A stretch of 58,468 nucleotides of DNA from an uncultured Campylobacterales bacterium (GCA_964650375.1 CAZYTB010000001.1:2052-60519), one strand, 5' to 3'; counted from the stretch's first letter, positions 34,521-58,468 are shown. Made by a program: numbers and translations. The notes: generated by a model not told the origin, from the sequence alone.

Positions 34521-35315
34521 CTAATTGTCAAACACGAGACAATCCATCGCTTGATTTCCATACATAAAAACATTGTTTAAAACTTTTGCTTTCTTATCTT
34601 TTGAAGTACCTAAGACAATAAATAATGGCAACAAATGCTCTAAGGTAGGATGATTTTCTGTTAATTTTGGAGCTTTTTGAATAAAATCGCAAAGTGTTTC
34701 AACATCACCTTTCTTTGCTTTTTCTACTATCCAATCTCTAAATTCTTTCGCATATTTATCAATTGGGGCATTCATGTCTCTATGCGACTTCGCAAGATTA
34801 TGGGTAAGTGTTCCACTTCCAATTATAAGCGCTTCTTCTCTAAGAGAGTACATAACCTCCCCTATTTCAATCAATTTTCTTGCATCACAATAAACAGGTA
34901 ACGATATCTGAACAACAGTAATATCTGCATCTGGGTACATTAAAGATAATGGTGCGCAGATACCATGATCATATCCCTCGTGCTCTTCATCTTTTGATAC
35001 TTCAATACCTGCTTTATTAAATGCCTTTATGACTTCTTCAACCTTTATTAAGTCATTTTTTATTGGATAACTCATTTCATACAGTTCTGCAGGAAACCCA
35101 TAAAAATCATTTATTTTGTTTGGTTTTGGATTTGACATTATTCGTAAATCCTTTGTTGCCCAATGTGCCGAAATCATAATGATATATTTTGGCTTATTAA
35201 ACAATAATGGCAATCTTTTTAAAAATTCAGAAGATTCAGAACAGCTTAAACACAAAGCAGGTGATCCATGTGAAATAAATATAGATGGAAACATTTGTTC
35301 TAGTTTCACTTTCAT
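34521..35315 (-). CDS. LigB-family (YgiD/DODA-like) extradiol dioxygenase
   Basis: FISHGSP, ISAHW, DFYGFP, DHG, GSGTLTHNL, HPTLEHLLPL. Confidence 0.92.
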   Translation of the reverse strand: MKVKLEQMFPSIFISHGSPALCLSCSESSEFLKRLPLLFNKPKYIIMISAHWATKDLRIMSNPKPNKINDFYGFPAELYEMSYPIKNDLIKVEEVIKAFNKAGIEVSKDEEHEGYDHGICAPLSLMYPDADITVVQISLPVYCDARKLIEIGEVMYSLREEALIIGSGTLTHNLAKSHRDMNAPIDKYAKEFRDWIVEKAKKGDVETLCDFIQKAPKLTENHPTLEHLLPLFIVLGTSKDKKAKVLNNVFMYGNQAMDCLVFDN

Positions 35316-35340
35316 ATTCTCTCCCTATATAATTTTAAAA

Positions 35341-36135
35341 TTAAAATGCTGACTGAACAACGCCGCCATCTACCCTTAAAAGCGCTCCATTAGTTGCACT
35401 GGAACATGCGCTTGATATATAGACAACCATATTTGCTATCTCTTCAACTTTACAAAATCTTTGTAGCAAAGATGTTGGTCTTACTTCATCAAAAAAGAAT
35501 TGTTCTATCTCTTCAAAAGTCTTGCCTTGCTCTTTTGCTAAATCTTCCATAAATTGTGTAACACCCTCAGAATTTGAAGGTCCCACGATAACAGAGTTTG
35601 AAGTAACTCCTGTACCTTTGGTGATCTCTGCTATTCCTCTACTAAGCGATACCTGAGCTGTTTTTGTTACGCCATAATGTATCATCTCTTTTGGAATTTG
35701 AAGTGCTGATTCACTCGAGATAAACACTATCCTTCCCCAGTTATTTTCTAACATTTTTGGCAAATAGTATTGAGAAAGTCTTACGCCACTCATCACATTT
35801 ACATTAAATATATGTATCCATTCATCATTTGTAATTTGCGTGAACTCTCTTGGTTCAAAAATACCTAAATTATTTATCAATATATCTACACTTTCAAGCT
35901 CGTTTAAAAGTTTTAAACAACCCTCTTCATCTTTTAAATCAGCTACTATACCACTTACTTTTGCATCATTTTGCTTTTTTTTGATTTTTACTATTGCATC
36001 ATTTACATTTTTTTGACTTCGTCCATTTATAACTACAACAGCGCCCTCTTCGCATAATTTCTTTGCTGTTGCAAAACCTATACCTTGAGTTGAGCCGGTA
36101 ACCAAAGCTACTTTGCCTTTTATTTGTAAATCCAT
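35341..36135 (-). CDS. Short-chain dehydrogenase/reductase
   Basis: TGSTQGIG, NNLG, YGVTK (YxxxK), VDGG. Confidence 0.93.
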   Translation of the reverse strand: MDLQIKGKVALVTGSTQGIGFATAKKLCEEGAVVVINGRSQKNVNDAIVKIKKKQNDAKVSGIVADLKDEEGCLKLLNELESVDILINNLGIFEPREFTQITNDEWIHIFNVNVMSGVRLSQYYLPKMLENNWGRIVFISSESALQIPKEMIHYGVTKTAQVSLSRGIAEITKGTGVTSNSVIVGPSNSEGVTQFMEDLAKEQGKTFEEIEQFFFDEVRPTSLLQRFCKVEEIANMVVYISSACSSATNGALLRVDGGVVQSAF

Positions 36136-36160
36136 CTTAATTCCTTTGTTTCTTTAGTTT

Positions 36161-37033
36161 TTATAATATAAAATACAATACTATAGGGATACTTATCAGT
36201 GAAAATAAATTTCCTATCGCAACAACGGATGCCACCAATACAGCATCTTTTTTATACTGTTCTGCCATAATCGAATTTAATACCGCTGGAGGAAGTGCTC
36301 CAAAAAGTATAAGTAAAACTTCTTGAGTGTGAGTATAGTGAAACACATGTATAGCGATAAATGCCATAATAACTCCAGATACAGGACATAAAACCGCTCC
36401 CAATAGACCAAGTTTCCAATACTTTAGCTCTACATGTATCAATCTTACCCCTAAAGCAAAAAGCACTAAAGGTATAGAGACTTGCGACATCATTTTAAGA
36501 GATGTGTTTATGACATCAGGAAAGTGGATATTAAAATAGTTAAATATTAACCCTGCAACAGTAGCAATTATCACTGGATTTTTCACTATCTTAATCCACT
36601 TCACCTCACCTCCATACATGATAGGAGCAATAGTAAACTGCCCGATAACCTGCACAAGAGACAGGGATATAAACATAACTAGTGCATCTTCTCCAAATGC
36701 AAATAGTGCCAAAGGGAAACCTAGATTTATAGAGTTATTAAACATCATAGGAGGTAAAAATGATCTAGGTTTTATCCCCATCATCTTTACTATTGGATAG
36801 AGGATTATTCCAGAACCAAGCACAACCATGACTCCACCTAAAGAAAAATATCCAAGATTTGTAATAGAGGGTAATTTCTCACTAATAGCGTAAAAAACCA
36901 AAATAGGTATAAATACTTCTAAGTTTATCTTATTCGTGGTATCCATACTAATATGTTCATTTTTAGCATACATGTAACCGATAAATGCTATAAATACGAT
37001 TGGAAATATGATTGAAAATATTTGGTATAACAT
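36161..37033 (-). CDS. AEC (auxin efflux carrier) family transporter
   Basis: About 10 TM, FNNSINLGFPL, KNPVIIA, IPLVLFALG, LPPAV. Confidence 0.88.
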   Translation of the reverse strand: MLYQIFSIIFPIVFIAFIGYMYAKNEHISMDTTNKINLEVFIPILVFYAISEKLPSITNLGYFSLGGVMVVLGSGIILYPIVKMMGIKPRSFLPPMMFNNSINLGFPLALFAFGEDALVMFISLSLVQVIGQFTIAPIMYGGEVKWIKIVKNPVIIATVAGLIFNYFNIHFPDVINTSLKMMSQVSIPLVLFALGVRLIHVELKYWKLGLLGAVLCPVSGVIMAFIAIHVFHYTHTQEVLLILFGALPPAVLNSIMAEQYKKDAVLVASVVAIGNLFSLISIPIVLYFIL

Positions 37034-37041
37034 CTAAAAAA

Positions 37042-37242
37042 TCAACCTGCTGCCATAGCCGGTAAGAGATTTATTTTATCGCCCTCTTTTAATTTTGTTT
37101 TTGTAATATCGCAAACTGTTACGACTCTGCCATTAACGGCAGCACCCATAACTTTATCACCCATTTTTACTTTTTCTATCACTTCATGTAAAGTAATACC
37201 TTCTTTAAATTCCATCTCTTTTCTATTTACTATCAGTTTCAT
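37042..37242 (-). CDS. ThiS-like sulfur carrier protein (66 aa)
   Basis: MKLIVNRK...AAVNGRVV...LKEGDKINLLPAMAAG with its own GGAGA RBS; embedded in the 255-aa track ORF. Confidence 0.8.
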   Translation of the reverse strand: MKLIVNRKEMEFKEGITLHEVIEKVKMGDKVMGAAVNGRVVTVCDITKTKLKEGDKINLLPAMAAG

Positions 37243-37265
37243 ATTCTCTCCATTGTATTTTATCT

Positions 37266-37740
37266 CTACTTTTCTTTCTCTCTTGAAAATAACCAAAAAG
37301 AAAACCATTTTGTAAATCTTGGCATTAATACATACGACATCATAATCATAGCAACTGCGGTTACTATAAATGTCCTTATAAGTAGAGGTATAGTAGATAG
37401 CATACCGCCGAATAAAATGAAAATTAGCGTTATAAGAGGATATAAAACCAACCAGCTCACTGGGTTCTTCCAAAAGTGATTCGATATTGTTCAATATTTC
37501 TGATCTTTTGCTTGATTTTAACCACTTATTTAAATTCTCTTCATTATTGAACTTATAGATAATCCTATATTCCGGATCATCTTGGCTAGATGGTCTGAAC
37601 ATAACAGCCCCAAGATATCCTGAAAAGGTTGCTGCCGCATGGGTTAAATCACCGCTTAAAAGCTCATACAACTCTTCTGCGCCTTTTTTAATTCTCCTTG
37701 ATACTACAACTGTTACATGCGAATCGTGGTTTTCACTCAT
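37266..37740 (-). pseudogene. ABM (antibiotic biosynthesis monooxygenase)-domain membrane protein, frameshifted by a probable internal deletion
   Basis: N-half VTVVVSRRIKKG...FSGYLG...YRIIYKF...W; C-half SWLVLYP...MSYVLMPRFTKWF in another frame; junction at 37456-37460. Confidence 0.75.
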
Positions 37741-37747
37741 TATATTT

Positions 37748-38686
37748 TTATTCATTTTTATATACAAACTCCAATAATGTTGATACCGTTCTTGTGTAGG
37801 TGGCATCATATCCCTGTGCCGTATTGTATTTTATAACAACTCCACAAATGTCATCAAGTTCCAATCTTCTGTTAAATTCCCTATCTACAAGCATGGATGG
37901 TTTGATTGAGTCAAAATTTTTAATCAAATCAAACATTGAATTTAACTCAGTATCTAGGAAATTTATATCTAAATACTTGGCCGCCTGAACTGTTTCACTC
38001 ATTAAACCAAAAACTATCCTTGATAACTTTTCATCGTGCATTAAAACACCTGTTTTGATTCTAAGTAATGTGCACAGTGCATTGACTCCATTGTTGATGA
38101 TAAGTTTTTTCCACAGTTCTTTTTTGATTTCTGATGATATCTCAAAAATAATTCCGTTTGCATTATATGATATTGACAATCTACTTAAAAATTTACTATT
38201 ATCAACTGTATTCTTGATGGCTCCAGCTATAATTTCAACATTTCCAGTAGCTTCAACTTTCCCGGGATGGACCACATGTGCACCAATTTTTCTGGCAATT
38301 CCACCTATTACTTTGTCTTGTGGAAAAAATTCACATAAAATATTTTCATTTTCCACACCATTTTGCAAAGAGATGATATAGGGTAACTGTGAACTACTTT
38401 TTAAAATATCGGATAATTTTTTTGCTATTTTTTCAGTTTCTATGGACTTTGTACATAATATAATAGCATCAAATATTGAAAAGTCCATGCCCTTTAACTC
38501 TTCAAAACTCATAGCATCTATTTTTTTAGAAAATGTAAAATTTGGATGCGACAAGCTTAGTCCATCGTTTTTTAAAGCTTTTAGATGTGCTCCCCTTGCT
38601 ATAAATTTTACATCTTCTCCAGCATTTAGTAGCCTGGCTCCAATATAGCAACCAACACCACCGGCACCTAAGATTATAAATCGCAT
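37748..38686 (-). CDS. Ketopantoate reductase (PanE/ApbA) family
   Basis: GAGGVG, CTKS, SLQNG, LWKKLIIN, KPSMLVD, LELD. Confidence 0.88.
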   Translation of the reverse strand: MRFIILGAGGVGCYIGARLLNAGEDVKFIARGAHLKALKNDGLSLSHPNFTFSKKIDAMSFEELKGMDFSIFDAIILCTKSIETEKIAKKLSDILKSSSQLPYIISLQNGVENENILCEFFPQDKVIGGIARKIGAHVVHPGKVEATGNVEIIAGAIKNTVDNSKFLSRLSISYNANGIIFEISSEIKKELWKKLIINNGVNALCTLLRIKTGVLMHDEKLSRIVFGLMSETVQAAKYLDINFLDTELNSMFDLIKNFDSIKPSMLVDREFNRRLELDDICGVVIKYNTAQGYDATYTRTVSTLLEFVYKNE

Positions 38687-38687
38687 A

Positions 38688-39512
38688 TTACTCTGACATA
38701 AAATTATCTACAAGTTTAATAAATCTATCTTTATGTTCTATTTGAGTCCAATGTCCACATTCACCAAAAATATGAAGTTGGGATTTTTTAATGAGCTGAT
38801 TGAACCTTATAGAATTTTGCAAAGGAATAACCTTATCTTCTCTTCCGTGGATTATCAAAGTGTTATGTGGTATCTTTTTGATATCTTGCTCGTCACTTTC
38901 CATGGCAATTACACCATTTTGTCTAGGAGCTGGAAACATTGAGCTAAATGCTTCTTGAAATCCTGGTCTTATACTAGCTTCATATCTTAGGCGTGCTAAC
39001 TCATCTGTTACTAAATTTCTATTATAAGCAAAGATATCCAATAATTCTTTCATATTTTCTAAGCTTGGCGTATATCCCCAAACTTTATCTAAACTATAAG
39101 TTAAATCAAATCCAACACCAACAGCACCCATTAACACAATTTTATTAAATCGTTCAGGATATCTAATCGCAAGAGCAACCGCTAAAGCTCCGCCAAAAGA
39201 ATTTCCAACTAGATTTATTTTCTTAAGTCCTAATGCATCCATAAGATCTATAGCTTGTTGTACCCAAGTATCCATATTATACACTATGTCCTCTGGTCTA
39301 TCTGTATATCCAAAGCCCACCATATCTGGTGCAATAACCCTAAACTTTTTACTAAGTTCCGGAATGCATAATCTCCAATTTGCATATGCTGTTACACCTG
39401 GACCTGATCCGTGTATAAACATAATAGCTTCGCTATTTTTATCACCTAAATCATGATAATTTGTATTATAAGTTCCTGTTTTTATACTATTTGCTATTTC
39501 ATGATTTTTCAT
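38688..39512 (-). CDS. dmpD: 2-hydroxymuconic semialdehyde hydrolase
   Basis: HGSGPGV, GNSFGG nucleophile elbow, HGREDKVIP, CGHWTQIE; operon context. Confidence 0.92.
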   Translation of the reverse strand: MKNHEIANSIKTGTYNTNYHDLGDKNSEAIMFIHGSGPGVTAYANWRLCIPELSKKFRVIAPDMVGFGYTDRPEDIVYNMDTWVQQAIDLMDALGLKKINLVGNSFGGALAVALAIRYPERFNKIVLMGAVGVGFDLTYSLDKVWGYTPSLENMKELLDIFAYNRNLVTDELARLRYEASIRPGFQEAFSSMFPAPRQNGVIAMESDEQDIKKIPHNTLIIHGREDKVIPLQNSIRFNQLIKKSQLHIFGECGHWTQIEHKDRFIKLVDNFMSE

Positions 39513-40530
39513 TATTTTCTCCTGTTAAATTAAATTCTTTTGCTAACAATTTATATGAATCTACTCTATCTTTAAATGAGTAAGTGACATTCACAACCAT
39601 AATCTCATCTACATCATAAAACATAGATAACTCCTCAAGCTGTTTTTTGCATTCTTTTGCAGTTCCTAGTATCATAGTATCCATAGTTTCATCGTAATAT
39701 GCTTTATCTTGTATATTCAAATTTGATATTTTATTTTCTAACTCTTTTGGAGATAGTAAAGGATCTCTGTTTGGTCTAGTAAATGCTTGAAGCTTCCAAT
39801 ATGTATGGCTACTTGCTATATGCTTTGCCTCTTTTTTAGAAGAAGCAACGATACATGCAACTGCTATCATAGCTTTTGGTTTTTTAAATGTATTTGATAC
39901 TTTAAATGAATCCCTGTATTCTTGTATGATTTGAGGTGTTCTATCATGTGTACCAATAAAAAGAGCAAGTACAAAACCAGCTCCTAATTCACCCGCAAGT
40001 TGTGAACTACCCTGACTTGAACCAAGGAGAAAGACAGGGGGAGCTTCTACACCTTGAGGTGTCAGTGTAACATCATAATAAGGGTGATTAGATGGAAGAT
40101 TTTGGTTTAAATAACCAATTAACTCATAAGCTTTTCGGGAGTAATCATTGCCGTTTTGCTCATGCAGTGCTCTCGCAGTTATGAAATTAGCCCCACTAGC
40201 TCTTCCTATTCCTACATCTATTCTGTTTTCATGTAAAGCATTTAGAGCCTTAAATGTTTCAGCTACTTTAAAAGGGCTGTAATGATTCAACATCACGCCT
40301 CCACTTCCGACTCTGATGTTAGAGGTTGCGGTTGCAACTGAGTTAACCATCACTTCAGGATTTGAAGATGCATAACCAGGGGTATTGTGATGCTCTGCCA
40401 ACCAATACCTGTGATAGCCTAAATCATCACAAATTTTAGCTAATTCAATCGTATCAAAAAGCCCCTGCTTAGCTTCTTTGCCATCGTGTATTGGAGATTG
40501 ATCCAATACACTTAATTTTAACTTTTTCAA
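39499..40530 (-). CDS. Luciferase-like (LLM class) flavin-dependent oxidoreductase
   Basis: LSVLDQSP, YWLAEHH, RVGSGGVML, RIDVGIGR, LLGSS. Confidence 0.9.
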   Translation of the reverse strand: MKKLKLSVLDQSPIHDGKEAKQGLFDTIELAKICDDLGYHRYWLAEHHNTPGYASSNPEVMVNSVATATSNIRVGSGGVMLNHYSPFKVAETFKALNALHENRIDVGIGRASGANFITARALHEQNGNDYSRKAYELIGYLNQNLPSNHPYYDVTLTPQGVEAPPVFLLGSSQGSSQLAGELGAGFVLALFIGTHDRTPQIIQEYRDSFKVSNTFKKPKAMIAVACIVASSKKEAKHIASSHTYWKLQAFTRPNRDPLLSPKELENKISNLNIQDKAYYDETMDTMILGTAKECKKQLEELSMFYDVDEIMVVNVTYSFKDRVDSYKLLAKEFNLTGENNEKS

Positions 40531-40536: not shown

Positions 40537-40728
40537 TTATTTTCCCATCTTTTTGGCGCTCTGCCCGGCTATCCCAAAATGCTGTTTTTTCATCTCATTT
40601 AGAATAATTCGAATACTAGAATAAGGAGCATCGATAGATTTATGAATTGCTTCTGTTACCTGTTTGATAAATTCCTCTTTTTTTTCGTCACTTCTGCCCT
40701 CGAGTATATTTATCGTTGCTATTGGCAT
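40537..40728 (-). CDS. dmpI: 4-oxalocrotonate tautomerase
   Basis: Catalytic Pro1 (MPIATINILEGRS), 63 aa. Confidence 0.95.
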   Translation of the reverse strand: MPIATINILEGRSDEKKEEFIKQVTEAIHKSIDAPYSSIRIILNEMKKQHFGIAGQSAKKMGK

Positions 40729-40737
40729 AATTTATCC

Positions 40738-41526
40738 TTAAACAAATCTCATTGTATGTGTTCCCAAGCCTTGGAACATTGCGGTTACATTATCACCTTT
40801 TTTTACTGCATGTGCTGCAGTAATTGCGCCTGAGAGTATAAAAGTTCCAGCTTTTAAAACTTCCCCTCGTTCACCCATCATATTTGCAAGCATTGCAATC
40901 GATGTTGCAGGGTGACCAAGAACTGCCGCACCAGCTCCTAAATCTACCGTTTCACCATTGACTTGTAGAACAACACCTAATGTTTTCAGATCAACATCAT
41001 TGATGCATTTTGACATTCCACCCGTTACATATCTTGATGAAGAGGAATTGTCTGCTATGACTGATTTTAAATCAAATTTAAAATCTTTATATCTTGAATC
41101 TATAATTTCAACAGCAGGCATAACAAAATCAGTTGCCGCTAAAACATCTCCTATATGACAACCAGGTCCAACCAAATCATCTTTGAGTACAAAAGCAATC
41201 TCTGCTTCAACTTTTGGGTGAATCAATTCATCTATCTTGATATCAGCTCCATCTCCACAAGCAAAGTAATCTGCCAAAAATCCATAACACGGATTAGGCA
41301 CACCCATTTGTTTCATCTTGGCTTGAGAGGTAAGACCCATTTTCATACCAACTATTTTAGTACCCCTTGCTTCTTTGTTCGCACGAATTTTCCATTGGAC
41401 ATCAAACGCATCTTTATATGTCATCTGCGGGTATTGGTCTGTCACTTTTGTAATCTCTTGTGCATTAATTTCAGCATCTTCACAATATTTTGCTAATTGT
41501 TCAATTTCAGATTTATTCAATGACAT
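40738..41526 (-). CDS. dmpH: 4-oxalocrotonate decarboxylase
   Basis: GMKMGLTSQAKM, HPKVEAE, EIIDSRY, VIADNSSS, GAAVLGHP. Confidence 0.93.
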   Translation of the reverse strand: MSLNKSEIEQLAKYCEDAEINAQEITKVTDQYPQMTYKDAFDVQWKIRANKEARGTKIVGMKMGLTSQAKMKQMGVPNPCYGFLADYFACGDGADIKIDELIHPKVEAEIAFVLKDDLVGPGCHIGDVLAATDFVMPAVEIIDSRYKDFKFDLKSVIADNSSSSRYVTGGMSKCINDVDLKTLGVVLQVNGETVDLGAGAAVLGHPATSIAMLANMMGERGEVLKAGTFILSGAITAAHAVKKGDNVTAMFQGLGTHTMRFV

Positions 41527-42557
41527 TATATCAAACCTTTCTCTTTAGCCATATCAAGTGCTAAATCTTCAATCATATCTTCTTGACCACCAACTGTTCC
41601 TCTGCGACCAAGTTCTTCCAATATAGCTCTTGAATCAACACCGTATTTTTCAGCAGCTCGTCTAGCAAAAAGTAAAAACGAAGAATACACACCAGCATAT
41701 CCAAGAGTCAGCGAATCTCTTGAAATTCGTGTAGGCTTGCCCATGATAGGCAAAGCTATATCTTCAGCAGCATCTTCTACAGCATGTAGGTCAATTCCGG
41801 TTTCTACACCCATAAGATTTAAAACAGCTATGAGAACTTCTAGCGGACAGTTTCCCGAACCTGCACCAAAGCCAGCTAGTGCAGCATCAATTCTATCGGC
41901 ACCTGCTTCTATAGCAGCTATAGAATTTGCCACAGCCATCGACATATTGTTGTGTCCATGAAAGCCTATCTCTACTTTATCGCCATAAGCTTTTTTTATT
42001 GCACCGATTTTTTCTCTTACTTCATCAGGAAGCATATGACCAGATGAATCGGTTATATATATACAGTTTGCACCATAAGATACCATTTTACCGGCTTCCT
42101 CAACTAACCTTTTAGCACTTGCCATATGTGACATCATTAAAAATCCAACACAGCTAAGACCTATCTCTTTTGCTTTTTCTATATGCTCTTGTGAAACATC
42201 TGCTTCTGTACAATGTGTCGCTACTCTTACCATAGACACTCCACACTCCATAGCTTCAAGCATATCAGGAACTGTTCCGATTCCAGGAAGAAGCAATGCA
42301 GATACTTTTGTATTATTGACAGATTTTACAGCCTCGCTCATCCATTCTTTATTTGTATGCAAACCAAAACCATAATTGATAGAAGAACCACCTAAACCAT
42401 CTCCATGAGTTACTTCAATCAAAGGTACACCGGCAGCATCAAGTGCTTTTGCCATTGTTGCAACTTGTTCCAATGTAAATTGATGCCTAATAGAATGCAT
42501 ACCATCTCTTAGAGACATATCATGTATTGTTACTTTTCTTCCTTTAATGCTGCTCAT
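41526..42557 (-). CDS. dmpG: 4-hydroxy-2-oxovalerate aldolase
   Basis: [45 protein letters not shown]. Confidence 0.97.
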
Positions 42558-43447
42558 TACGCATCCTTTTCTAATAATTTTAGTGCCATCTGTTCAGCAG
42601 AATAAGTCGCTGCAGAAGTCATAATATCAAGGTTACCTGCATATTTTGGCAGATAATCCCCCAATCCTTCTACTTCAACATAGATAGAAACTCTATGTCC
42701 GTCAAATACAGGACCATTTTTTACTTTATAGCCTGGTACATATTTTCGTATTTCATCAGCCATATCATTTACCGATTTTCTAATCGCTTCTTCATTTGGT
42801 TTGTCTGTTGTAAGACAATGAATAGTATCTCTCATCATTAAAGGTGGTTCAGCAGGGTTAAGAACAATGATTGCTTTGCCTTTATTTGCTCCTCCTACTT
42901 TTACGATAGCATCAGAAGTTGTTTCAGTAAACTCATCAATATTTATTCTCGTTCCAGGTCCTGCTGATTTAGATGAAATTGTTGCGATAATTTCACCATA
43001 TTCTACTTCTTGCACGCGAACAATAGCTTGCATCATAGGTATAGTTGCTTGACCTCCACATGTAACCATATTTACATTTTGCTCATCTTTGTCAAGATGG
43101 TCAGCTAAGTTTACAGGAGGAACACAATATGGTCCTATTGCCGCTGGAGTTAAATCTAGCATTTTTACGCCATATTTTTTTAACTTTTCATTTGTAATTG
43201 GGTGAACTTTTGCAGCTGTTGCATCAAATGCAATTCTTACATCATCTTCTTTTATATGGTCCAACATCCCATCAATACCCAGATGGGTAGTTTTCATACC
43301 ATTTTCTCTGGCTTTTTTAAGTCCGTCTGAACTCTCAACGATACCAACCATCCATAAAGGATTTAGAACTTTACTTCTTAACAGTTTAAACATTAAATCA
43401 GATCCGATGTTTCCAGAACCAATCAATACACAGTTTATCTTTTTCAT
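42557..43447 (-). CDS. dmpF: Acetaldehyde dehydrogenase (acylating)
   Basis: [36 protein letters not shown]. Confidence 0.97.
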
Positions 43448-43456
43448 AATTTTTCC

Positions 43457-44245: not shown

Positions 44246-44255
44246 ATTAACTTCT

Positions 44256-45713: not shown

Positions 45714-45740
45714 ATCTCTTTCCTTTTTAACTCTTTAACT

Positions 45741-46160: not shown

Positions 46161-46165
46161 ATTTT

Positions 46166-47113: not shown

Positions 47114-47128
47114 AAATCCTTTTTTATT

Positions 47129-48507: not shown

Positions 48508-48508
48508 C

Positions 48509-48868: not shown

Positions 48869-48878
48869 ATTTTATCCT

Positions 48879-50393: not shown

Positions 50394-50405
50394 CTCAACT
50401 CCTTT

Positions 50406-50681
50406 TTAGTTATCCCAATAAACGATAAATTCATCGTCAGTTTCGTCAATTTGACCACCAATAGATATAAGTACCAGCTGTAACTCTTCAGGTTCCCACT
50501 CTCTTCCAAGTGCTTCAGATACCGTCTCAGCTTTTACTACAATCCTACCCGGTCTTTCTATCTGAATCATCGCGGGTTTGTTTGTGATAGTTACACCTTC
50601 ATTATCTTCCCTTATCGCCTCTGCAATCGTTCTTCCTTCATCAGTTGATTGAAGGCATAATAGTGCTACACTTTTTGACAT
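50406..50681 (-). CDS. dmpM: Phenol hydroxylase regulatory protein (P2)
   Basis: MmoB/DmpM-like; LVLISIGGQIDETDD. Confidence 0.92.
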   Translation of the reverse strand: MSKSVALLCLQSTDEGRTIAEAIREDNEGVTITNKPAMIQIERPGRIVVKAETVSEALGREWEPEELQLVLISIGGQIDETDDEFIVYWDN

Positions 50682-50689
50682 AAATACTC

Positions 50690-51682
50690 CTATATACTTA
50701 AACCATTTTTATTTAATCTATCTGTTAAATCGCTTTTAGCAGTAGAAACAATCTCTTGTGAATTATTTGAATATCCGGCAAGTGGAGTAATCGCACTTTC
50801 TGCGATATCGATATACTCTTTTACCCAGTGCTCCAGTGTTTGTTTGTTTTCCTCTGATTCTCCTGCCATTACTTTTATAACACTGTTTATCCATTTTGTT
50901 GATTCTTCATACCAAGTTGTTACAAATTCATTCATCATAGCTACCTCTGATACACCTAAATCCGTCATAGCTTCTGAAAACTTAGAAATCAAAACAGGGA
51001 TAACAAAAGCATCTAGTACCACATTTTGTGCAACAAAGAGTTTTACTGGGTCTTTTATAACCAAAGTATCTTCAACCGCTTTTCTTAAGCCTTGCCATTT
51101 GGAATCATTTAGCCAACTATTTTTTCCATTGTCTAATTTTGAAGTATCATTATTTGATACTGCCAAAATAGTTTTTGTGACATGTTGTGCCATACCTAAT
51201 CTATCTGATGCGTGAAATAGACAGGCAGAAGTAAATGCAGTTCCATATCCTCTTGCAACAATCGTAAGATTGTTTAAGTCTGCACCGTACTCATAATGTC
51301 TAAGTGGAGTCATATACTCATATATTTTATTTTTTACATCATCACTGATGCGAGAAAGCATTCCTCTCTTTTCCAGAAAATTAAAGGTTTGAGTATTTGC
51401 ATCATTTTGCTTTGCTCTTGTTGATACATAAGTCATATAATGAAACTTTCTAGGATCCAATAACTTATACCAGTCACTCATCACAATCGCAGTTCTTTTG
51501 ACATCATATATCTCAAACTCTGGTTCCCATTGAGGTCTATAATGAAAATTTTCTGTTGGCTGTGCATCATATACCGCTTCTTCATATCTTGAAGCTGGTC
51601 TATCTTCACCAAATCTCTCTGCAATGTGTCCAAATGTATGTCGTTTGGGCTCAATCTCAATACTAGCTATATCTAATTTCAC
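50690..51682 (-). CDS. dmpL: Phenol hydroxylase beta subunit (P1)
   Basis: PASRYEE, NFHYRPQW, DPRKFHY, PLRH, DRLGMAQ, WQGLR. Confidence 0.95.
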   Translation of the reverse strand: MKLDIASIEIEPKRHTFGHIAERFGEDRPASRYEEAVYDAQPTENFHYRPQWEPEFEIYDVKRTAIVMSDWYKLLDPRKFHYMTYVSTRAKQNDANTQTFNFLEKRGMLSRISDDVKNKIYEYMTPLRHYEYGADLNNLTIVARGYGTAFTSACLFHASDRLGMAQHVTKTILAVSNNDTSKLDNGKNSWLNDSKWQGLRKAVEDTLVIKDPVKLFVAQNVVLDAFVIPVLISKFSEAMTDLGVSEVAMMNEFVTTWYEESTKWINSVIKVMAGESEENKQTLEHWVKEYIDIAESAITPLAGYSNNSQEIVSTAKSDLTDRLNKNGLSI

Positions 51683-51948
51683 ATTTTCTCCTTTTTTGTA
51701 AATTTATTATCAACATTTTCGATACCATATTTCCACTGAAGCAGTTCATTTTCAATTCTTTGCTCTTGTTCTACTGTAAAAAAACTGACTCTATTGGTTG
51801 CACAAAATTTTATAAACTCTTTATATGGTAAAAGCAACTCTGCATAAATAGATGGGTCATCTATCGCAAAATAAAACTCTACAAACCCATCATCTCTAGT
51901 ATTTAGGACTTGTACATATTTTTTTAAGCCGTTCATTAATTCTCCCAT
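51679..51948 (-). CDS. dmpK: Phenol hydroxylase assembly subunit (P0)
   Basis: FVEFYFAIDDPSIYAELLLP..F..FC..N.V; AAGGAGG RBS. Confidence 0.9.
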   Translation of the reverse strand: MGELMNGLKKYVQVLNTRDDGFVEFYFAIDDPSIYAELLLPYKEFIKFCATNRVSFFTVEQEQRIENELLQWKYGIENVDNKFTKKEKM

Positions 51949-52105
51949 TCATACCTCCTTATAAATTGTAAAAATTATATATAAAATTAATCGCATTTTA
52001 TTCGCATTTATTATAAATACATAATTTTTACATAAATATAAAAAAGCGATTAAAAAACGATTTTTTTGTGTAAAAATTGCATAAATCAAAAATAAGGAGT
52101 AAAAC
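51949..52105. promoter_or_regulatory. Divergent promoter region with mirror-image direct-repeat pairs
   Basis: TCGCATTT at 51991 and 52002; AAAAGCGA/AAAAACGA at 52042 and 52053; minus-strand TATAAT at 51974-51979. Confidence 0.7.
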
Positions 52106-53596
52106 ATGTCTTTAATGAAAAGAGAAGATTGGTACGATTTAACCAGAACAACAAACTGGTCGCCCAAGTATGTGAGTGAGGATGAATTGTTTCCAGAAGA
52201 GATGAGCGGAGCTAGAGGTATCCCTATGGAAGCTTGGGAAGATTATGATGAGCCTTATAAAGTAACATATCCAGAGTATGTTGAAACTCAAAGAGAGAAA
52301 GATGCTGGGATTTATTCTGTAAAAGCTGCACTTTCTAGATCAAAATTTATGGACAATGTAGATCCAGGCTGGGAAGCTACAATGCAAGCACATTATGGCG
52401 CTGTAGCCTTAGCAGAGTATGCTGCAAGTCTTGCAGAGACTAGAATGGCAAGATTTGCTAAAGCCCCAGGAAACAGAAATATGGCTACTTTTGGCATGTT
52501 AGATGAAAATAGACATGGTCAGCATCAGCTTTATTTTCCACATACTTATGTTGAGAGGTCAAGACAATGGGATTGGGCTTTAAAAGCAAATCATACAAAT
52601 GAGTGGGCTGCAGTAGCAGGTAAAAACTTTTTTGATGATATTATGATGACTAGAGACGCTGTTGCAACATCTATCATGCTTACATTCTCTTTTGAGACAG
52701 GTTTTACAAATATGCAATTTTTAGGACTTGCATCTGACGCAGCTGAGACTGGAGATCATACATTTGCATCTCTTATCTCAAGTATTCAAACAGATGAGTC
52801 ACGACATGCTCAACAAGGTGGACCAAGCCTAAAAATTCTTGTAGCTAACGGTAAGAAAAAAGAAGCACAAGAGTTGGTTGATTTATCTATTTGGAAAGCT
52901 TGGAGATTGTTCTCAGTTCTTACTGGTCCTATTATGGATTATTATACTCCACTTGAAGGTAGAAAACAATCATTTAAAGAGTTTATGGAAGAGTGGATTG
53001 TAGCTCAATTTGAGAGGCAACTTCTTGATATTGGACTAGACCTTCCATGGTATTGGGATGAGTTTATAGCAGACATAGCAGATAAACAGCATGGTATGCA
53101 TTTAGGTGTTTGGTATTGGAGGCCAACGGCATGGTGGAATCCAGCTGCTGGTGTAGGAAAAGCTGAGAGAGCTTGGCTAGAAGAAAAATATCCAGGATGG
53201 AATGATACTTATGGAAAATGTTGGGATGTTATCACGGACAATATTTTAAATGACAGAAAAGACTTAACACTACCTGAAACACTTCCAGTTATTTGCCACA
53301 CAGGATTTATACCACTAATTACTCCTCCAAACACAAAAAGAGCAGAGGGTAAGTTGGTTGATTATCAGCTTGAATATGAAGGAAGATTATATCACTTTAA
53401 CTCAGAAGTAGATAAATGGGCATTTGAAACAGATCCCCAAAGATATAAAGGTGTTATGACTGCAGTTGACCATTTTCTAGCTGGTCATATTAATCCACCT
53501 GATCTTGGTGGAGCACTGGCATGGATGGGTCTGGCTCCAGGTGAGATGGGTGACGATGCACATAATTATGCATGGGCTGAAGACTTTAGAAAATAA
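52106..53596 (+). CDS. touA: Toluene/o-xylene monooxygenase hydroxylase alpha subunit (TouA/TmoA)
   Basis: KREDWYDLTRTTNW N-terminus; E104, DENRH (E134/H137), FETGFTN (E197/T201), DESRH. Confidence 0.95.
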   Translation: MSLMKREDWYDLTRTTNWSPKYVSEDELFPEEMSGARGIPMEAWEDYDEPYKVTYPEYVETQREKDAGIYSVKAALSRSKFMDNVDPGWEATMQAHYGAVALAEYAASLAETRMARFAKAPGNRNMATFGMLDENRHGQHQLYFPHTYVERSRQWDWALKANHTNEWAAVAGKNFFDDIMMTRDAVATSIMLTFSFETGFTNMQFLGLASDAAETGDHTFASLISSIQTDESRHAQQGGPSLKILVANGKKKEAQELVDLSIWKAWRLFSVLTGPIMDYYTPLEGRKQSFKEFMEEWIVAQFERQLLDIGLDLPWYWDEFIADIADKQHGMHLGVWYWRPTAWWNPAAGVGKAERAWLEEKYPGWNDTYGKCWDVITDNILNDRKDLTLPETLPVICHTGFIPLITPPNTKRAEGKLVDYQLEYEGRLYHFNSEVDKWAFETDPQRYKGVMTAVDHFLAGHINPPDLGGALAWMGLAPGEMGDDAHNYAWAEDFRK

Positions 53597-53619
53597 AAAT
53601 AAAAATAAAAGGATAAAAA

Positions 53620-53874
53620 ATGGCATTATTTCCACTATTTTCACTGTTTGAAAATGATTTTGTAGTACAAGTATTACCGGTTGATACAGAAGATTCTATG
53701 GACGAAGTTGCAAAAAAATGTGCATATCATACAGTAGGAAGAAGACAAGTAGCCCAACCAGGTAGAGTGATGAGAGTAAAAAGGCATAGCAATGGAGAAT
53801 TATTTCCAAGAGACATGAAAGTTCAAGAGGCAGGCTTTATGCCTACAGAAACTATAGATGTTGTATATGAATAG
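53620..53874 (+). CDS. touB: Toluene monooxygenase gamma subunit (TouB/TmoB)
   Basis: FPL.S.FE.DFVVQ..PVDTEDSMDEVA..CAYH. Confidence 0.93.
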   Translation: MALFPLFSLFENDFVVQVLPVDTEDSMDEVAKKCAYHTVGRRQVAQPGRVMRVKRHSNGELFPRDMKVQEAGFMPTETIDVVYE

Positions 53875-53880
53875 GATTAG

Positions 53881-54228
53881 ATGATGGCTTTTGAAAAAAT
53901 ATGTACACTAGATGATGTCTGGGAAGGTGAAATGAAATCTTTCACTACTGCTGATGGGACAGAAGTTTTAGTCGTAGCTCATGAAGATGACAAAATAGTC
54001 ATCTTCCAAAACATGTGTCCTCATCAAGAGATACAACTAGGTCAAAAAGGGAAGCTTAACGAAGATGGAGTACTTACATGTACCGCCCATCTTTGGGAGT
54101 TTGACTCATGTACAGGTGCTGGATTAAACCCGACAGATTGCAAATTGGCTGTGTATCCGTCAAAAGTAGAGAACGAGGATGTTTATGTAGATATCGACGG
54201 AATAATTCCTGAAAAATCACATAGCTAA
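53881..54228 (+). CDS. touC: Toluene monooxygenase Rieske ferredoxin (TouC/TmoC)
   Basis: FEKICTLDDVWEGEM; CPHQ and CTAH Rieske ligands. Confidence 0.95.
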   Translation: MMAFEKICTLDDVWEGEMKSFTTADGTEVLVVAHEDDKIVIFQNMCPHQEIQLGQKGKLNEDGVLTCTAHLWEFDSCTGAGLNPTDCKLAVYPSKVENEDVYVDIDGIIPEKSHS

Positions 54229-54251
54229 TATAAAAATACGAAGGAAATTAA

Positions 54252-54560
54252 ATGTCAAATAATACAGATAAAGTTTACAACAATAATGTAGGACCAATAG
54301 TTAGAGCAGGCGATGTTGCACTTGCAGTTATAGAAGCGGCAGAAATCGATAATCCAGATAAAAAAATTGTGGTTAACGATCAAGTTGCTTATTATAGAAT
54401 TTCATGTGAACATGAGATGATTCTCAGAAGAAAAACCATAGAAGAGTGTCTAGGTAAACCTTTTGAGATGAGGGAGTTGGAGATAAATATGGCATCTTTT
54501 GCAGGTCAGATTATGGCAACAACTGACGATGTAAGATTTTACTTAGACGAAACAAAATAA
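54252..54560 (+). CDS. touD: Toluene monooxygenase effector (TouD/TmoD)
   Basis: [29 protein letters not shown]. Confidence 0.95.
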
Positions 54561-54572
54561 TAAGGAGATAAA

Positions 54573-55574
54573 ATGAGCGGAGAAGCACAAGCAGCAGAAT
54601 TTGCAGCACCATTAAAAACTTGGTCTTTAGCAAAAGGCGGCAGAAGAAAACCAAGTGAATATGATATAGTGTCAAGACATTTACACAACCATATGGATGA
54701 TCAAAAACAACCATTTCATTTTCCAAATATACCTATGTCAGATTGGTATATAAAGAACAGAAACAACAGTCCATTAAAGCATGATGATTGGGATTCTTTT
54801 ACAGATCCAGATAAATTAGTATATAGAACATATAATATCTTGCAAGATGGTCAAGAAACCTATATAAAGGGACTTTTTGATCAAATGAATGAAAGAGGTC
54901 ATGATGAAATGCTCTCAAGAGAACATGCAAAAGTTTTAGCAAGGCTTTATACTCCTGCTAGATATGCGTATCATACACTTCAACTTAGTTCAGCATACTT
55001 GCAACAAATGGCACCTTCAAGTACTATAACTAACTGTGCCACATATCAAACAGCAGATGAGCTACGAATACTAACTCATACTGCATATAGAACCAAAGAG
55101 CTTTCAAAAACTTTTCCTGACTTAGGTTTTGGTGAAAACGAAAGAGAACTTTGGGAAAATGATCCTGCTTGGCAAGGCATAAGAGAGTTAATGGAAAAAG
55201 CACTAGTAGCATGGGATTGGGCAGAAACATTTGTTGTGTTAAATCTTCTTGCCAAACCTGCTCTTGAAGAATCAATTCAAATTCAATTTGGAAACTATGC
55301 AAAAGATTCTAATGATACACTTTTAGGACTTTTGAGTCAATCTCAATACAATGATTCACTGCGTCATAGAAAATGGACATCAGCACTTGTTAAGATGGTT
55401 GAAGAAGTAGAAGGAAATAAAGAATATATGCAATCAATTATCACAAAGTGGCTACCACTTACAGATAAAGCAATAGAAGATTATTGCAATGCTATACCTG
55501 ATGCAGAAAATGCATCTAGCGAGGCTAAAGAAGCAGTTAGAACATACCTTGGTTCATTAGGATTTACAGCTTAA
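54573..55574 (+). CDS. touE: Toluene monooxygenase beta subunit (TouE/TmoE)
   Basis: PLKTWS, RRKPSEYDIVSR, DPDKLVYRTYN..QDGQE, WQGIRELMEK. Confidence 0.95.
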   Translation: MSGEAQAAEFAAPLKTWSLAKGGRRKPSEYDIVSRHLHNHMDDQKQPFHFPNIPMSDWYIKNRNNSPLKHDDWDSFTDPDKLVYRTYNILQDGQETYIKGLFDQMNERGHDEMLSREHAKVLARLYTPARYAYHTLQLSSAYLQQMAPSSTITNCATYQTADELRILTHTAYRTKELSKTFPDLGFGENERELWENDPAWQGIRELMEKALVAWDWAETFVVLNLLAKPALEESIQIQFGNYAKDSNDTLLGLLSQSQYNDSLRHRKWTSALVKMVEEVEGNKEYMQSIITKWLPLTDKAIEDYCNAIPDAENASSEAKEAVRTYLGSLGFTA

Positions 55575-55582: not shown

Positions 55583-55662
55583 CATACTTAAGAAGGGAAC
55601 TTCTTTTCTTAAGTATGCTAAATTAGCCCTCTCTCTCCCACGGGGGGTTAATTTAGCATACT
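55583..55662 (+). other. Two overlapping long stem-loops between touE and the ADH gene
   Basis: CATACTTAAGAA/TTCTTAAGTATG (55583-55617) and AGTATGCTAAATTA/TAATTTAGCATACT (55612-55662) share AGTATG. Confidence 0.7.
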
Positions 55663-55684
55663 ACAAAAAACAAAAGGAAGATTA

Positions 55685-56749: not shown

Positions 56750-56759
56750 AAAGGTAAAG

Positions 56760-57713
56760 ATGAAGAATACAATATTTGATGTTATCATACTAGGTGCTGG
56801 TCCTGCTGGTATAGCTACCGCTTATGAAGCAGAACAGCTTGGTCTTAGAAAGATTTTAATATTGGAAAAAACTGAACATCATTCTCATACTATTAGAAAT
56901 TTTTATGAGGATGGAAAATCTATAGACAGAGACTGGGGAGGTTTTGAAGTTGAACTTTTAGGTAACATTGATTTTAAATTTATTAAAGAAAAAAAGCTGG
57001 ATTATTTTGAAGAAATTTTAAATAAATCTAAAATTATAGATGTTGTTTATAACAGCGAGGTTTATTTGATAGAGAAAAAAGACGACTTGTTTAGTATAGA
57101 GTCAAAATCAGGTTCGTACAGTGCTAAAAATGTAGTCATAGCAATTGGAAGAATGGCAAAACCTAAAAAACCAGATTATAGACTTCCCAGGAAGCTAGCA
57201 AAAAAAATCAATTTTGACCTCTCTAAAGCCACTTCCAATGAAAAGATACTAGTCGTAGGCGGAGGAGACAGTGCATCAGAATACGCAACATCATTGTCAA
57301 AAAATAATGATGTAACCATAACATACAGAAAAGAAAAATTTACAAGACCAAATCCGCTAAATCAACAAAAATTAAAAGAAAAATTTGAAAGTGAAGATTT
57401 AAAACATAAACTAGGTGTTGATATTAAAGAGATAGTAGATGAACATGGTCTTATAAAAATTGTATATACTGATGACTCAAGCGACACTTATGAAAGAATG
57501 ATATTCGCTCTTGGTGGAACTACTCCGATGGATTTTATCAAAAACAGTGGCATAAAAGTCGATGAATTGTCACAACCTATATTTAATGAAAACAATGAAA
57601 CTATAATAATAGGACTTTTTGTAGCTGGAGATATAGTGTTTCAAAATGGTGGAAGTATTTCAGTTGCATTTAATCAAGGATATAAAATAGCAAAATTCAT
57701 AACAAAAACTTAA
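56760..57713 (+). CDS. FqrB-like (TrxB-fold, no CxxC) FAD/NADPH flavodoxin/ferredoxin reductase
   Basis: GAGPAG, TIRNFYEDGKSID, IAIGRMAKPKKPDY, GGGDSA, YRKEKFTR, ALGGTTPMDF, VAGDI; matches recalled Cj0559/HP1164. Confidence 0.8.
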   Translation: MKNTIFDVIILGAGPAGIATAYEAEQLGLRKILILEKTEHHSHTIRNFYEDGKSIDRDWGGFEVELLGNIDFKFIKEKKLDYFEEILNKSKIIDVVYNSEVYLIEKKDDLFSIESKSGSYSAKNVVIAIGRMAKPKKPDYRLPRKLAKKINFDLSKATSNEKILVVGGGDSASEYATSLSKNNDVTITYRKEKFTRPNPLNQQKLKEKFESEDLKHKLGVDIKEIVDEHGLIKIVYTDDSSDTYERMIFALGGTTPMDFIKNSGIKVDELSQPIFNENNETIIIGLFVAGDIVFQNGGSISVAFNQGYKIAKFITKT

Positions 57714-57731
57714 ATTATTTAAAGGGAAAAA

Positions 57732-58468
57732 ATGAAAAAAAATGTACTAACTCGTAGAGAAGCTTTAAAAAAACTCGGAGCTGCAGTCATCGGGGGTATA
57801 GCAATAGCAGATACTGCAAGTGCGTCATCCACATCTAAAAGGATGGGTAAACCATTTAAAATTGGTTATGTAAGTCCAAAGACTGGTCCTCTGGCAATAT
57901 TTGCCGAGCCTGATCCATTTACACTTGCTCAAGTAAAAGAGGTTTTAAAAGATGGCATCACGATAGATGGAACAACACATCTGATTGAAATTATCTATAA
58001 AGATAGCCAATCTAGTTCAAACAGAGCATCAGAAGTAGCATCACAATTGATATTGAAAAATGAAGTTGATTTAGTCATTGCCGCAAGTACTCCTGATACA
58101 ACAAATCCGGTTGCTGACCAATGTGAACTAAATGGAGTGCCTTGTGTTACCACTGATACACCATGGCAACCGCACTTTTTTGGAAGAGGCGGAGATCCAA
58201 AAGTTGGATTTGAATGGACATACCATTTTTTCTGGGGATTAGAAGATGTTATTGGGTCATACACTAATCTTTGGGAACAAATACCCACAAATAAAACCGT
58301 AGGTGTTTTATTTCCAAATGATTCTGATGGAAATGCATGGGGAGATGCAAAGCATGGTTTTCCTCCAGTACTAAAGAAAAAGGGCTACAAGATGGTAGAT
58401 TTAGGAAGATATCATTCTCCAACTAGTGACTTTTCATCTTACATATATGAATTTAAAAAACAAGGTGT
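57732..58468 (+). CDS. Tat-exported ABC transporter substrate-binding protein (branched-chain amino acid/PBP1 type), truncated by window end
   Basis: MKKNVLTRREALK Tat motif, KIGYVSPKTGPLA, DSQS, TPDTTNPV, PWQP; frame open to the end of the window. Confidence 0.88.
   Translation, partial: MKKNVLTRREALKKLGAAVIGGIAIADTASASSTSKRMGKPFKIGYVSPKTGPLAIFAEPDPFTLAQVKEVLKDGITIDGTTHLIEIIYKDSQSSSNRASEVASQLILKNEVDLVIAASTPDTTNPVADQCELNGVPCVTTDTPWQPHFFGRGGDPKVGFEWTYHFFWGLEDVIGSYTNLWEQIPTNKTVGVLFPNDSDGNAWGDAKHGFPPVLKKKGYKMVDLGRYHSPTSDFSSYIYEFKKQG

What the first reader, a model, noticed from the sequence alone, without database searches (positions are those of the whole stretch)
34521..58468. Complete aerobic benzene/toluene/xylene/phenol catabolic system in a hydrogen-oxidising Campylobacterota genome
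Seen: divergent touABCDE and dmpKLMNOPQB-glcG-CEFGHI-llm-D with intact catalytic motifs, AT-rich codons and host-like RBSs, contiguous with Campylobacterota core genes. Established: the ToMO + phenol hydroxylase + meta-cleavage combination (as in Pseudomonas stutzeri OX1) converts monoaromatics to pyruvate and acetyl-CoA and is known mainly from Beta/Gammaproteobacteria. Inference: a microaerophilic mixotroph that attacks hydrocarbons directly, a role I do not know to be established for this phylum; the host-like composition suggests an old, domesticated acquisition.
Basis: partly seen in the sequence, partly recalled or inferred. Interest (0 to 1): 0.92.

Follow-up and report, generated by a model that had tools for sequence, protein, structure and literature searches.

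The report
Host-rewired toluene and phenol breakdown island
A vent bacterium of the Campylobacter-Sulfurospirillum group carries an intact gene set that likely lets it break down toluene-, benzene- and phenol-type compounds with oxygen; the set lacks the usual electron-donor and regulator genes and is predicted to use replacements from its own lineage, a wiring I did not find described.

Summary
The cluster is real. A Sulfurospirillaceae MAG carries divergent touABCDE and dmpKLMNOPQB-glcG-CEFGHI-llm-D operons with intact iron ligands, host-like codons and purifying selection, placed just after a dif-like site. The phylum-level novelty was overstated: meta-cleavage was shown in Arcobacter strain CAB (2013), and a phenol-hydroxylase-family gene is in 36 of 184 Arcobacteraceae genomes. 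The toluene monooxygenase is rare (3 genomes plus metagenome contigs, one clade), and I found no description of it. The copy here is likely a within-phylum lateral gain (0 of 60 family relatives). Two rewirings are new. (1) The reductase TouF is absent from this clade (present in 122 of 125 assessable outside loci); a CxxC-less TrxB-fold (FqrB-like) paralogue follows touE-adh instead and likely feeds the ferredoxin (about 55%). (2) XylR/DmpR is absent; a PAS-HisKA_2/OmpR-type pair occurs in exactly the same 36 genomes, and a GCGAT-N6-RCGAT repeat lies at both promoters here, 10 bp before a -10 box in 24 of 27 sites. That pair is missing from this assembly. No activity or expression data exist. 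The scan noted tandem monooxygenase clusters before in two other genomes, without these features.

The parts
33315..34355 (-). XerH-type chromosomal tyrosine recombinase (host core gene; left neighbour of the island; the name XerH is recalled)
   Evidence: PF18644+PF00589; 62-74% orthologues next to aor/moaD in 4 of 4 genus relatives whose flanks were fetched
34373..34403 (.). dif-like (difH-type) site; left boundary of the variable region
   Evidence: Same site with 1-4 mismatches just upstream of xerH in 4 genus relatives and 1 Arcobacter MAG, followed by different DNA in each; single copy in G000
34521..38686 (-). Accessory tail: ligB-type dioxygenase, SDR, AEC-family transporter, ABM/ThiS (probably frameshifted), ApbA-like reductase
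   Evidence: sdr/aec/apbA recur in other dmp clusters
38688..40530 (-). dmpD-like hydrolase and luciferase-like monooxygenase
   Evidence: PF00561; TIGR03558 above cut-off; 67-77% and 56-70% to cluster homologues
40537..47446 (-). Catechol meta-cleavage genes dmpQ, dmpB (catechol 2,3-dioxygenase), glcG, dmpC, E, F, G, H, I
   Evidence: TIGR03211, 03216, 03215, 03217, 03218, TIGR00013 above cut-off; TIGR03220 407.6 vs 408.8; C23O structure match E 7e-122
47449..51948 (-). Multicomponent phenol hydroxylase dmpKLMNOP, including reductase DmpP (47449-48507)
   Evidence: PF06099, PF02332, PF02406, PF02332+YHS, PF04663, Fer2/FAD/NAD; PHN match
51974..52005 (-). Predicted dmpK promoter: repeat GCGAA-N6-GCGAT (52005-51990), 10 nt, TATAAT (51979-51974)
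52046..52061 (+). Predicted touA activator box GCGAT-N6-ACGAT (its -10 hexamer is weak, AAAAAT)
   Evidence: present upstream of touA in 6 of 6 clade loci with upstream DNA, 0 of 143 outside loci
52106..55574 (+). Toluene/o-xylene-monooxygenase-like touA, B, C (Rieske ferredoxin), D, E; no touF
   Evidence: no TouF-like gene in G000 other than DmpP
55583..55663 (+). Two hairpins between touE and adh (terminator or stabilising element)
   Evidence: hairpins also in the same gap of 5 clade loci and in the touE-touF gap of gammaproteobacterial L002
55685..56749 (+). Zn-dependent alcohol dehydrogenase travelling with tou
   Evidence: PF08240/PF00107; 82-89% in clade loci, 59-64% in proteobacterial clusters
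56760..57713 (+). TrxB-fold flavoreductase with no cysteine (FqrB-like; label recalled); proposed TouF replacement
   Evidence: PF13738; TrxR/FNR fold; 0 Cys; own clade apart from the host housekeeping copy; 1 of 184 Arcobacteraceae, a tou-positive one
57732..58468 (+). Tat-type periplasmic binding protein (PF13458), cut by the contig end

Best explanation
This is a laterally acquired aromatic-catabolism island, next to the chromosome's dif-like site, that likely oxidises benzene/toluene/xylene-type rings with O2 and is predicted to run on a reductase and a regulator from the Campylobacterota lineage instead of the proteobacterial TouF and XylR/DmpR. Proposed steps: (1) TouABDE hydroxylates the hydrocarbon to a phenol or cresol, with electrons from Rieske ferredoxin TouC (genes and ligands shown; activity and substrate inferred from 74% identity to OX1 ToMO). 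(2) TouC is reduced by the FqrB-like flavoprotein encoded after touE-adh, probably with NADPH (loss of touF and the fixed touABCDE-adh-fqr block shown; electron transfer inferred, about 55%). (3) DmpKLMNOP makes catechols, DmpB cleaves them, and DmpCDEFGHI yields pyruvate and acetyl-CoA (genes shown; chemistry established, and shown for the lower pathway in Arcobacter CAB). (4) Both divergent operons are switched on by an OmpR/PhoB-type response regulator binding the GCGAT-N6-RCGAT repeat just upstream of the -10 box, under a membrane PAS-HisKA_2 kinase (motif, spacing and co-occurrence shown; binding inferred, about 80%; the pair is not in this assembly and would lie beyond the contig end). 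The host is likely a hydrogen-using, CO2-fixing Sulfurospirillaceae that uses aromatics as an extra carbon and energy source where O2 is available.
For: Intact genes and ligands. dN/dS 0.03-0.16 for touA, C, E, adh and fqr in 19 of 19 pairwise comparisons. The TouA clade of 22 rows has SH-aLRT 100 and lies among proteobacterial ToMO-type sequences (quick tree). The full system also sits in a single-contig Arcobacteraceae genome G416, in part in Arcobacter MAG L001 and in AT-rich contigs L085-L091. After touE (161 loci, 16 without touE): touF in 122 of 125 assessable outside loci (11 more too short); in the clade adh+fqr in 6 of 7 assessable loci and touF in 0 of 7 (2 more too short). G416 has no TouF-like reductase besides DmpP (one weak E 9e-5 hit). 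The cassette reductase is in 1 of 184 Arcobacteraceae (G416) and in none of the 34 with phenol hydroxylase only. The kinase (E<=1e-90) occurs in exactly the same 36 of 184 genomes as PF02332. XylR_N is in 0 of 5 Campylobacterota genomes and 3 of 3 proteobacterial controls. The repeat occurs twice in the window, against 0.03 expected, and a TA...T hexamer, not part of the pattern, lies exactly 10 nt behind it in 24 of 27 sites (at most 6 at any other offset).
Against: No expression or activity data. The kinase/regulator pair is not found in G000 (best hits 21-32%). The clade descends from one event, so the tou-fqr linkage is not independent evidence, and L088/L089 are near-duplicates. Arcobacter MAG G401 has tou (with frameshifted touD) but no cassette reductase. 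In G416 the cassette gene is the only copy of the family, so it may do housekeeping work. Hairpins separate touE from adh-fqr. The motif was derived by eye from these promoters, so the window enrichment is partly circular; L219 (G401 dmpK) has no match, and the touA -10 here is weak. ccoN and napA were not found in this MAG.
Confidence: 0.72

Rival explanations
1. Same pathway, different electron supply: DmpP (the phenol hydroxylase reductase) also reduces TouC, which made touF dispensable. The FqrB-like gene hitch-hikes and serves NADPH/flavodoxin balance or quinone detoxification.
For: DmpP is present in G000, G401 and G416 and is the only TouF-like protein found. G401 has tou without the cassette reductase. 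G416 has no other copy of the family. Quinone reductase activity is part of FqrB's name.
Against: A catechol-quinone detox role should track the 34 dmp-only genomes, and 0 of 34 have it. The touABCDE-adh-fqr block stays intact while the dmp blocks are reshuffled around it. G000 keeps its housekeeping copy as well.
Confidence: 0.35
2. The island is silent or only weakly expressed in this host because its activator pair did not come along.
For: No orthologue of the kinase or regulator in G000. In other clusters the pair lies directly beside dmpK or touA, where this genome has only a 157-bp divergent spacer.
Against: The contig ends inside the island, the MAG is 86% complete, both boxes are kept and the main frames are open.
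Confidence: 0.15
3. The contig is a chimera at the dif-like site, and the island belongs to another Campylobacterota population.
For: The site is a conserved 30-40 bp repeat. In runs X1 and X3 a second contig of higher depth leaves at 34414 into other DNA, and no single contig bridges xerH to ligB. Island depth is a third of host depth in X4. The MAG has about 190 kb of contigs above 42% GC and a stop in proS.
Against: In X3 overlapping contigs run from inside the site into ligB with window sequence. Host and island co-occur in 4 of 4 runs, with similar summed depth in 3 (5.97/4.83, 3.23/2.51, 4.36/3.77). Relatives vary at exactly this site. Even if true, the phylum-level result stands on G416, G401 and L085-L091.
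Confidence: 0.12
4. The monooxygenase acts mainly on something other than BTEX (phenols/cresols only, alkenes or ethers), or serves detoxification rather than growth.
For: Group 1 enzymes have broad physiological substrates (PMC11825192 section 3.1). The clade has I100V, E103A and I162N against OX1 TouA.
Against: The nearest solved relative is ToMO, and the full meta-pathway to pyruvate and acetyl-CoA is linked and shares the promoter box.
Confidence: 0.15

Closest known systems
Pseudomonas stutzeri OX1 ToMO (touABCDEF) plus phenol hydroxylase and meta-cleavage operon
   Same: TouA 73.8% identical with all six iron ligands; same order of the first five genes; linked PH (DmpN vs PHN E 9e-226) and C23O pathway.
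   Different: No touF; adh and a TrxB-fold reductase follow touE; no XylR/DmpR-type regulator (the OX1 regulator type is recalled); divergent layout; I100V/E103A/I162N; other phylum.
Arcobacter sp. strain CAB catechol meta-cleavage cluster (PMC3656443)
   Same: Same phylum; C23O and the lower pathway, shown to be induced and active on catechol (passages).
   Different: The main text has 0 occurrences of 'hydroxylase' and tested neither phenol nor toluene as donors; no monooxygenase or regulator described.
Group 2 SDIMO of Arcobacter anaerophilus DSM 24636 (WP_129082673.1) in PMC11825192 Table S3
   Same: A Campylobacterota phenol monooxygenase alpha subunit already placed in a published tree.
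   Different: Listed only, with no mention in the main text; no Campylobacterota organism among the 48 group 1 entries.
FqrB, flavodoxin:quinone reductase of Helicobacter pylori and Campylobacter jejuni; TrxR-type FNRs
   Same: TrxR/FNR fold without CxxC; 42-48% homologues in all but G416 of the 15 Campylobacterota genomes probed.
   Different: A separate paralogue clade tied to tou. The name FqrB for this family is recalled; the primary paper was not held and I made no direct sequence comparison.
PhoB/OmpR-type activation (Pho box); TodST/TmoST two-component control of toluene pathways (both recalled)
   Same: 11-bp direct repeat placed 10 bp before the -10 box; two-component control of aromatic genes.
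   Different: Different repeat; a membrane PAS-HisKA_2 kinase with a REC-Trans_reg_C regulator rather than a hybrid kinase with a NarL-type regulator.

Membership tests
Group 1 SDIMO (toluene monooxygenase, ToMO type) | Alpha, gamma, ferredoxin, coupling protein, beta in this order | tested here: met
   order as in PMC11825192 section 3.1
Group 1 SDIMO (toluene monooxygenase, ToMO type) | Sixth gene: 2Fe-2S/FAD NADH reductase (TouF) | tested here: not met
   Absent from the operon and not found in G000 (86% complete) or single-contig G416; filed therefore as a ToMO-like variant
Group 1 SDIMO (toluene monooxygenase, ToMO type) | Diiron ligands and Rieske Cys/His ligands | tested here: met
Group 1 SDIMO (toluene monooxygenase, ToMO type) | Alpha subunit groups with ToMO-type sequences | tested here: met
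   73.8% to OX1 TouA; quick IQ-TREE, midpoint-rooted
Group 1 SDIMO (toluene monooxygenase, ToMO type) | Hydroxylates toluene/benzene/xylene | not testable with these tools
   No assay
Group 2 SDIMO (multicomponent phenol hydroxylase) | Six genes K, L, M, N, O, P in order, with reductase and conserved DExRH ligand motifs | tested here: met
dmp-type meta-cleavage pathway | dmpQ, B, C, D, E, F, G, H, I all present | tested here: met
   (dmpE 1.2 bits under cut-off; dmpD by fold family, position and 67-77% identity to cluster homologues)
XylR/DmpR-regulated phenol/toluene operons | XylR_N-domain activator in the genome | tested here: not met
   0 of 5 Campylobacterota genomes, 3 of 3 proteobacterial controls
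FqrB / TrxR-type ferredoxin(flavodoxin):NADP+ reductase | TrxR fold lacking the CxxC disulphide | tested here: met
FqrB / TrxR-type ferredoxin(flavodoxin):NADP+ reductase | Orthology to the characterised H. pylori/C. jejuni FqrB | tested here: inconclusive
   Single 42-45% homologues in 5 of 5 other-family genomes, but these are unnamed; label recalled
FqrB / TrxR-type ferredoxin(flavodoxin):NADP+ reductase | NADPH-dependent reduction of a ferredoxin or flavodoxin | not testable with these tools
Xer-exploiting integrative element (IMEX) | Flanked by two dif-like sites, with its own replication genes | tested here: inconclusive
   Only one site in G000, and the contig ends inside the island

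The most novel reading that the evidence does not exclude
Campylobacterota have built their own version of aerobic aromatic catabolism: a toluene monooxygenase powered by a thioredoxin-reductase-fold NADPH enzyme instead of the reductase found in all described group 1 enzymes, controlled by a new aromatic-sensing two-component system with a Pho-box-like operator, and moving between families of vent, seep and coastal Campylobacterota. This would make hydrogen- and sulfur-oxidising 'primary producers' direct BTEX degraders, and about a fifth of Arcobacteraceae species overlooked phenol degraders.
Probability: 0.45. Interest if true: 0.8.

Novelty: new variant of a known kind. Interest (0 to 1): 0.64.

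Why it matters
Campylobacterota at vents, seeps and oil-affected waters are read as hydrogen/sulfur oxidisers or cross-feeders, and their role in oil degradation is unsettled (PMC7284936 passages). These data give specific, testable genes for direct attack on monoaromatics in a rare clade and on phenols in 36 of 184 Arcobacteraceae genomes, several of which are high-quality assemblies (for example single-contig G416). A non-orthologous reductase swap in a four-component monooxygenase, and a new aromatic-responsive two-component system with a defined operator, would matter for SDIMO enzymology, biosensors and the annotation of environmental tmoA/dmpN reads.

Tried and rejected
Phylum-wide sample: 0 of 400 other genomes had PF02332. 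This was misleading, because 276 of the 400 came from two families of small genomes; the family-level search gave 36 of 184, so I rejected 'absent from the phylum'. Family f4 (nearest to the GltA flanking L086): 0 of 250 over the cut-off. Family f8: 1 of 351, phenol hydroxylase only. The hosts of L085, L086, L088-L091 therefore remain unassigned below the phylum, and their phylum rests on GC, tree position and Campylobacterota-type neighbours. The idea that 33315-34355 is the island's integrase was rejected: it is a conserved host gene. A second reductase in G401 (C142) lies in a phenylacetate-type region and is not linked to tou. The sigma-70 consensus scan was uninformative (20 found, 26.7 expected). 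Rfam: no match. Plasmid collection: no close relative of the reductase, and TouA relatives only in other phyla. Sequencing runs: no RNA holder listed, which is no evidence either way. The careful TouA tree did not finish; the quick tree is used. DmpN and reductase trees are FastTree only, with a long-branch warning on the latter. The FqrB primary paper was not held.


Full report
Observation. The window is G000:C1:2052-60519, and the contig ends at the window end. TouA is 73.8% identical to OX1 TouA with all iron ligands kept and three pocket changes shared by most of its clade (I100V, E103A, I162N). DmpN and DmpB align full length to solved PHN and catechol 2,3-dioxygenase. Island and host codon use are alike (GC3 0.223 vs 0.214, r 0.98), and touA, C, E, adh and the reductase are under purifying selection (dN/dS 0.03-0.16 in 19 of 19 pairs).

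Host. The nearest named HemA relatives are Sulfurospirillaceae (76-79%). The window holds two NiFe hydrogenases and DabA, and the genome has ATP-citrate lyase. ccoN and napA were not found in this 86%-complete MAG, though 12 of 13 genus relatives have ccoN; cydA is present in two pieces. Three of the five listed runs that hold the DNA are labelled hydrothermal vent metagenome, all from one study that may be the source.

Boundary. The gene left of the cluster is a conserved host recombinase, and a dif-like site at 34373-34403 precedes it in four genus relatives, each with different DNA beyond. The island starts about 120 bp past the site. Public contigs of four runs cover host and island at similar summed depth in three runs and a third in the fourth. 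In X3 overlapping contigs lead from inside the site into ligB, but no contig bridges both sides, and a second, deeper contig leaves at 34414 in X1 and X3. A chimera at this site is not excluded (about 12%).

Distribution. PF02332 was found in 0 of 60 other genomes of the host's family, 36 of 184 Arcobacteraceae (family of G401), 0 of 250 of family f4 over the cut-off and 1 of 351 of family f8. A 400-genome phylum sample gave 0 and was unrepresentative. Only G000, G401 and G416 have both monooxygenases. G416, a single 2.34-Mb contig, has the whole system. Seven AT-rich metagenome loci carry TouA at 87-94%, and the 90% cluster of the window's TouA has 51 members. These TouA sequences form one clade among proteobacterial ToMO-type proteins. 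The DmpN sequences from Campylobacterota genomes and clade loci form one deeper clade (35 rows, support 99) with about 70% identity between its halves. The window's block is a mosaic: phenol hydroxylase nearest to Arcobacteraceae (DmpN 85%), lower pathway nearest to G984 (DmpC 90%), tou-adh nearest to L090. So entry into the phylum is likely old, and arrival in this genome likely lateral and more recent.

Missing reductase. A review gives six genes for group 1 operons, the last a reductase (PMC11825192 section 3.1 passage). Here touF is absent from the operon and from the assembly, where DmpP is the only full-length homologue. Among 161 loci (16 without touE), a TouF-like gene follows touE in 122 of 125 assessable outside loci and in 0 of 7 assessable clade loci; 6 of the 7 have adh plus the TrxB-like gene 9-12 bp apart. 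These loci include duplicates and kin. The TrxB-like protein has a TrxR/FNR fold and no cysteine. It forms its own clade of 20 rows apart from the host's housekeeping copy, its nearest outside relatives with names are Campylobacterota at about 50%, and among 184 Arcobacteraceae it occurs only in tou-positive G416. I call it FqrB-like from recall; FqrB's role as NADPH-flavodoxin reductase is from passages of PMC7084853. Against a dedicated role: G401 has tou without it, G416 has no other copy, hairpins lie between touE and adh, and DmpP could serve TouC. I put the swap at about 55%.

Replaced regulation. XylR_N is absent from 5 of 5 Campylobacterota genomes tested and present in 3 of 3 proteobacterial controls. 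A membrane PAS-HisKA_2 kinase and a REC-Trans_reg_C regulator flank the clusters, and the kinase occurs in exactly the 36 genomes that have PF02332. Comparing upstream regions showed a repeat GCGAH-N6-RCGAT. It occurs twice in the window, once per divergent promoter (0.03 expected), 27 times across the window and 14 cluster loci, once in 17 control loci, in 0 of 143 outside touA upstream regions, and 4 times in 2.36 Mb of the host's low-GC contigs. L219 has no match. A TA...T hexamer sits exactly 10 nt downstream in 24 of 27 sites, as recalled for Pho boxes. The pair itself is not in G000.

Literature. Seen: PMC3656443 (passages incl. abstract: Arcobacter CAB grows on catechol by meta-cleavage); PMC11825192 (passages, section 3.2, supplement part 3: one Arcobacter group 2 entry, none among 48 group 1 entries, no main-text mention); PMC13603553 (term search of text and supplement, 0 hits); PMC11136905 (term search, 0 hits); PMC7284936, PMC7084853, PMC6682613 and bioRxiv 10.64898/2026.05.21.726876 (passages). 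Searches for a prior description (listings) found none for a Campylobacterota toluene monooxygenase, the reductase swap or the regulator. The library lacks most subscription journals, bioRxiv supplements are closed, and automatic database annotations of these proteins exist, so absence from print is not shown.

Verdict. The feature is real and works like the OX1 ToMO/phenol hydroxylase/meta-cleavage system. It fails strict group 1 membership on the reductase and differs in regulation: a new variant of a known kind. Everything functional is inferred from sequence. Interest 0.64.

Noticed in passing
L214:9454-16842 (G075) and L215:9210-16657 (G165): A prophage-like element sits directly after the dif-like site in two genus relatives, with a RepL/HTH gene, an AAA ATPase and a 317-aa protein weakly matching the viral coat protein P2 C-terminal domain (PF25513, E 5e-5): likely a PM2-like double-jelly-roll phage integrated at dif.
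   Followed up: partly
window 4029-5735: proS is split by an in-frame TAA near 4302; as the gene is essential this is likely a consensus error. cydA on G000:C100 is also in two pieces.
   Followed up: partly
G000, 35 contigs above 42% GC (about 190 kb; e.g. C21, C72): High-GC contigs (up to 66%) in a roughly 32% GC bin suggest contamination beyond the reported 2.9%.
   Followed up: no
window 13454-30000: Host block: TetR, two NiFe hydrogenases with cytochrome b and protease, then DabB-like/DabA inorganic-carbon transporter and a PII-like protein.
   Followed up: partly
window 30924-33192: Aldehyde:ferredoxin oxidoreductase with two MoaD/ThiS-like genes, conserved at 86-88% next to xerH in four genus relatives.
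   Followed up: partly
L231:3530-9964 (G401:C142): An Arcobacter MAG has a phenylacetate-type region (enoyl-CoA hydratase, PaaX-like, CoA ligase, thiolase by eye) in which a 341-aa protein with no Pfam hit lies beside a 2Fe-2S/FAD reductase; possibly an unusual ring-activating oxygenase.
   Followed up: no
L216:3189, L243:8470 and sdr promoters in L217, L220-L223, L243: The same repeat box precedes a porin-like gene and the SDR gene near dmp clusters, suggesting a wider regulon that includes uptake.
   Followed up: partly
L087:6651-8627; L222:16987-18870: Methyl-accepting chemotaxis-like genes and a TauE-family transporter lie inside or beside the clusters, hinting at chemotaxis to and transport of aromatics.
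   Followed up: no
L001:7074-7884 and 10092-10310: dmpD and touD are frameshifted in the Arcobacter MAG, which also lacks adh-fqr after touE: decay or low-coverage error.
   Followed up: partly
window 37042-37809: The ABM-domain ORF runs into a ThiS domain through an apparently off-frame stretch; in G984 the ABM-like part is fused to apbA and thiS is separate.
   Followed up: no
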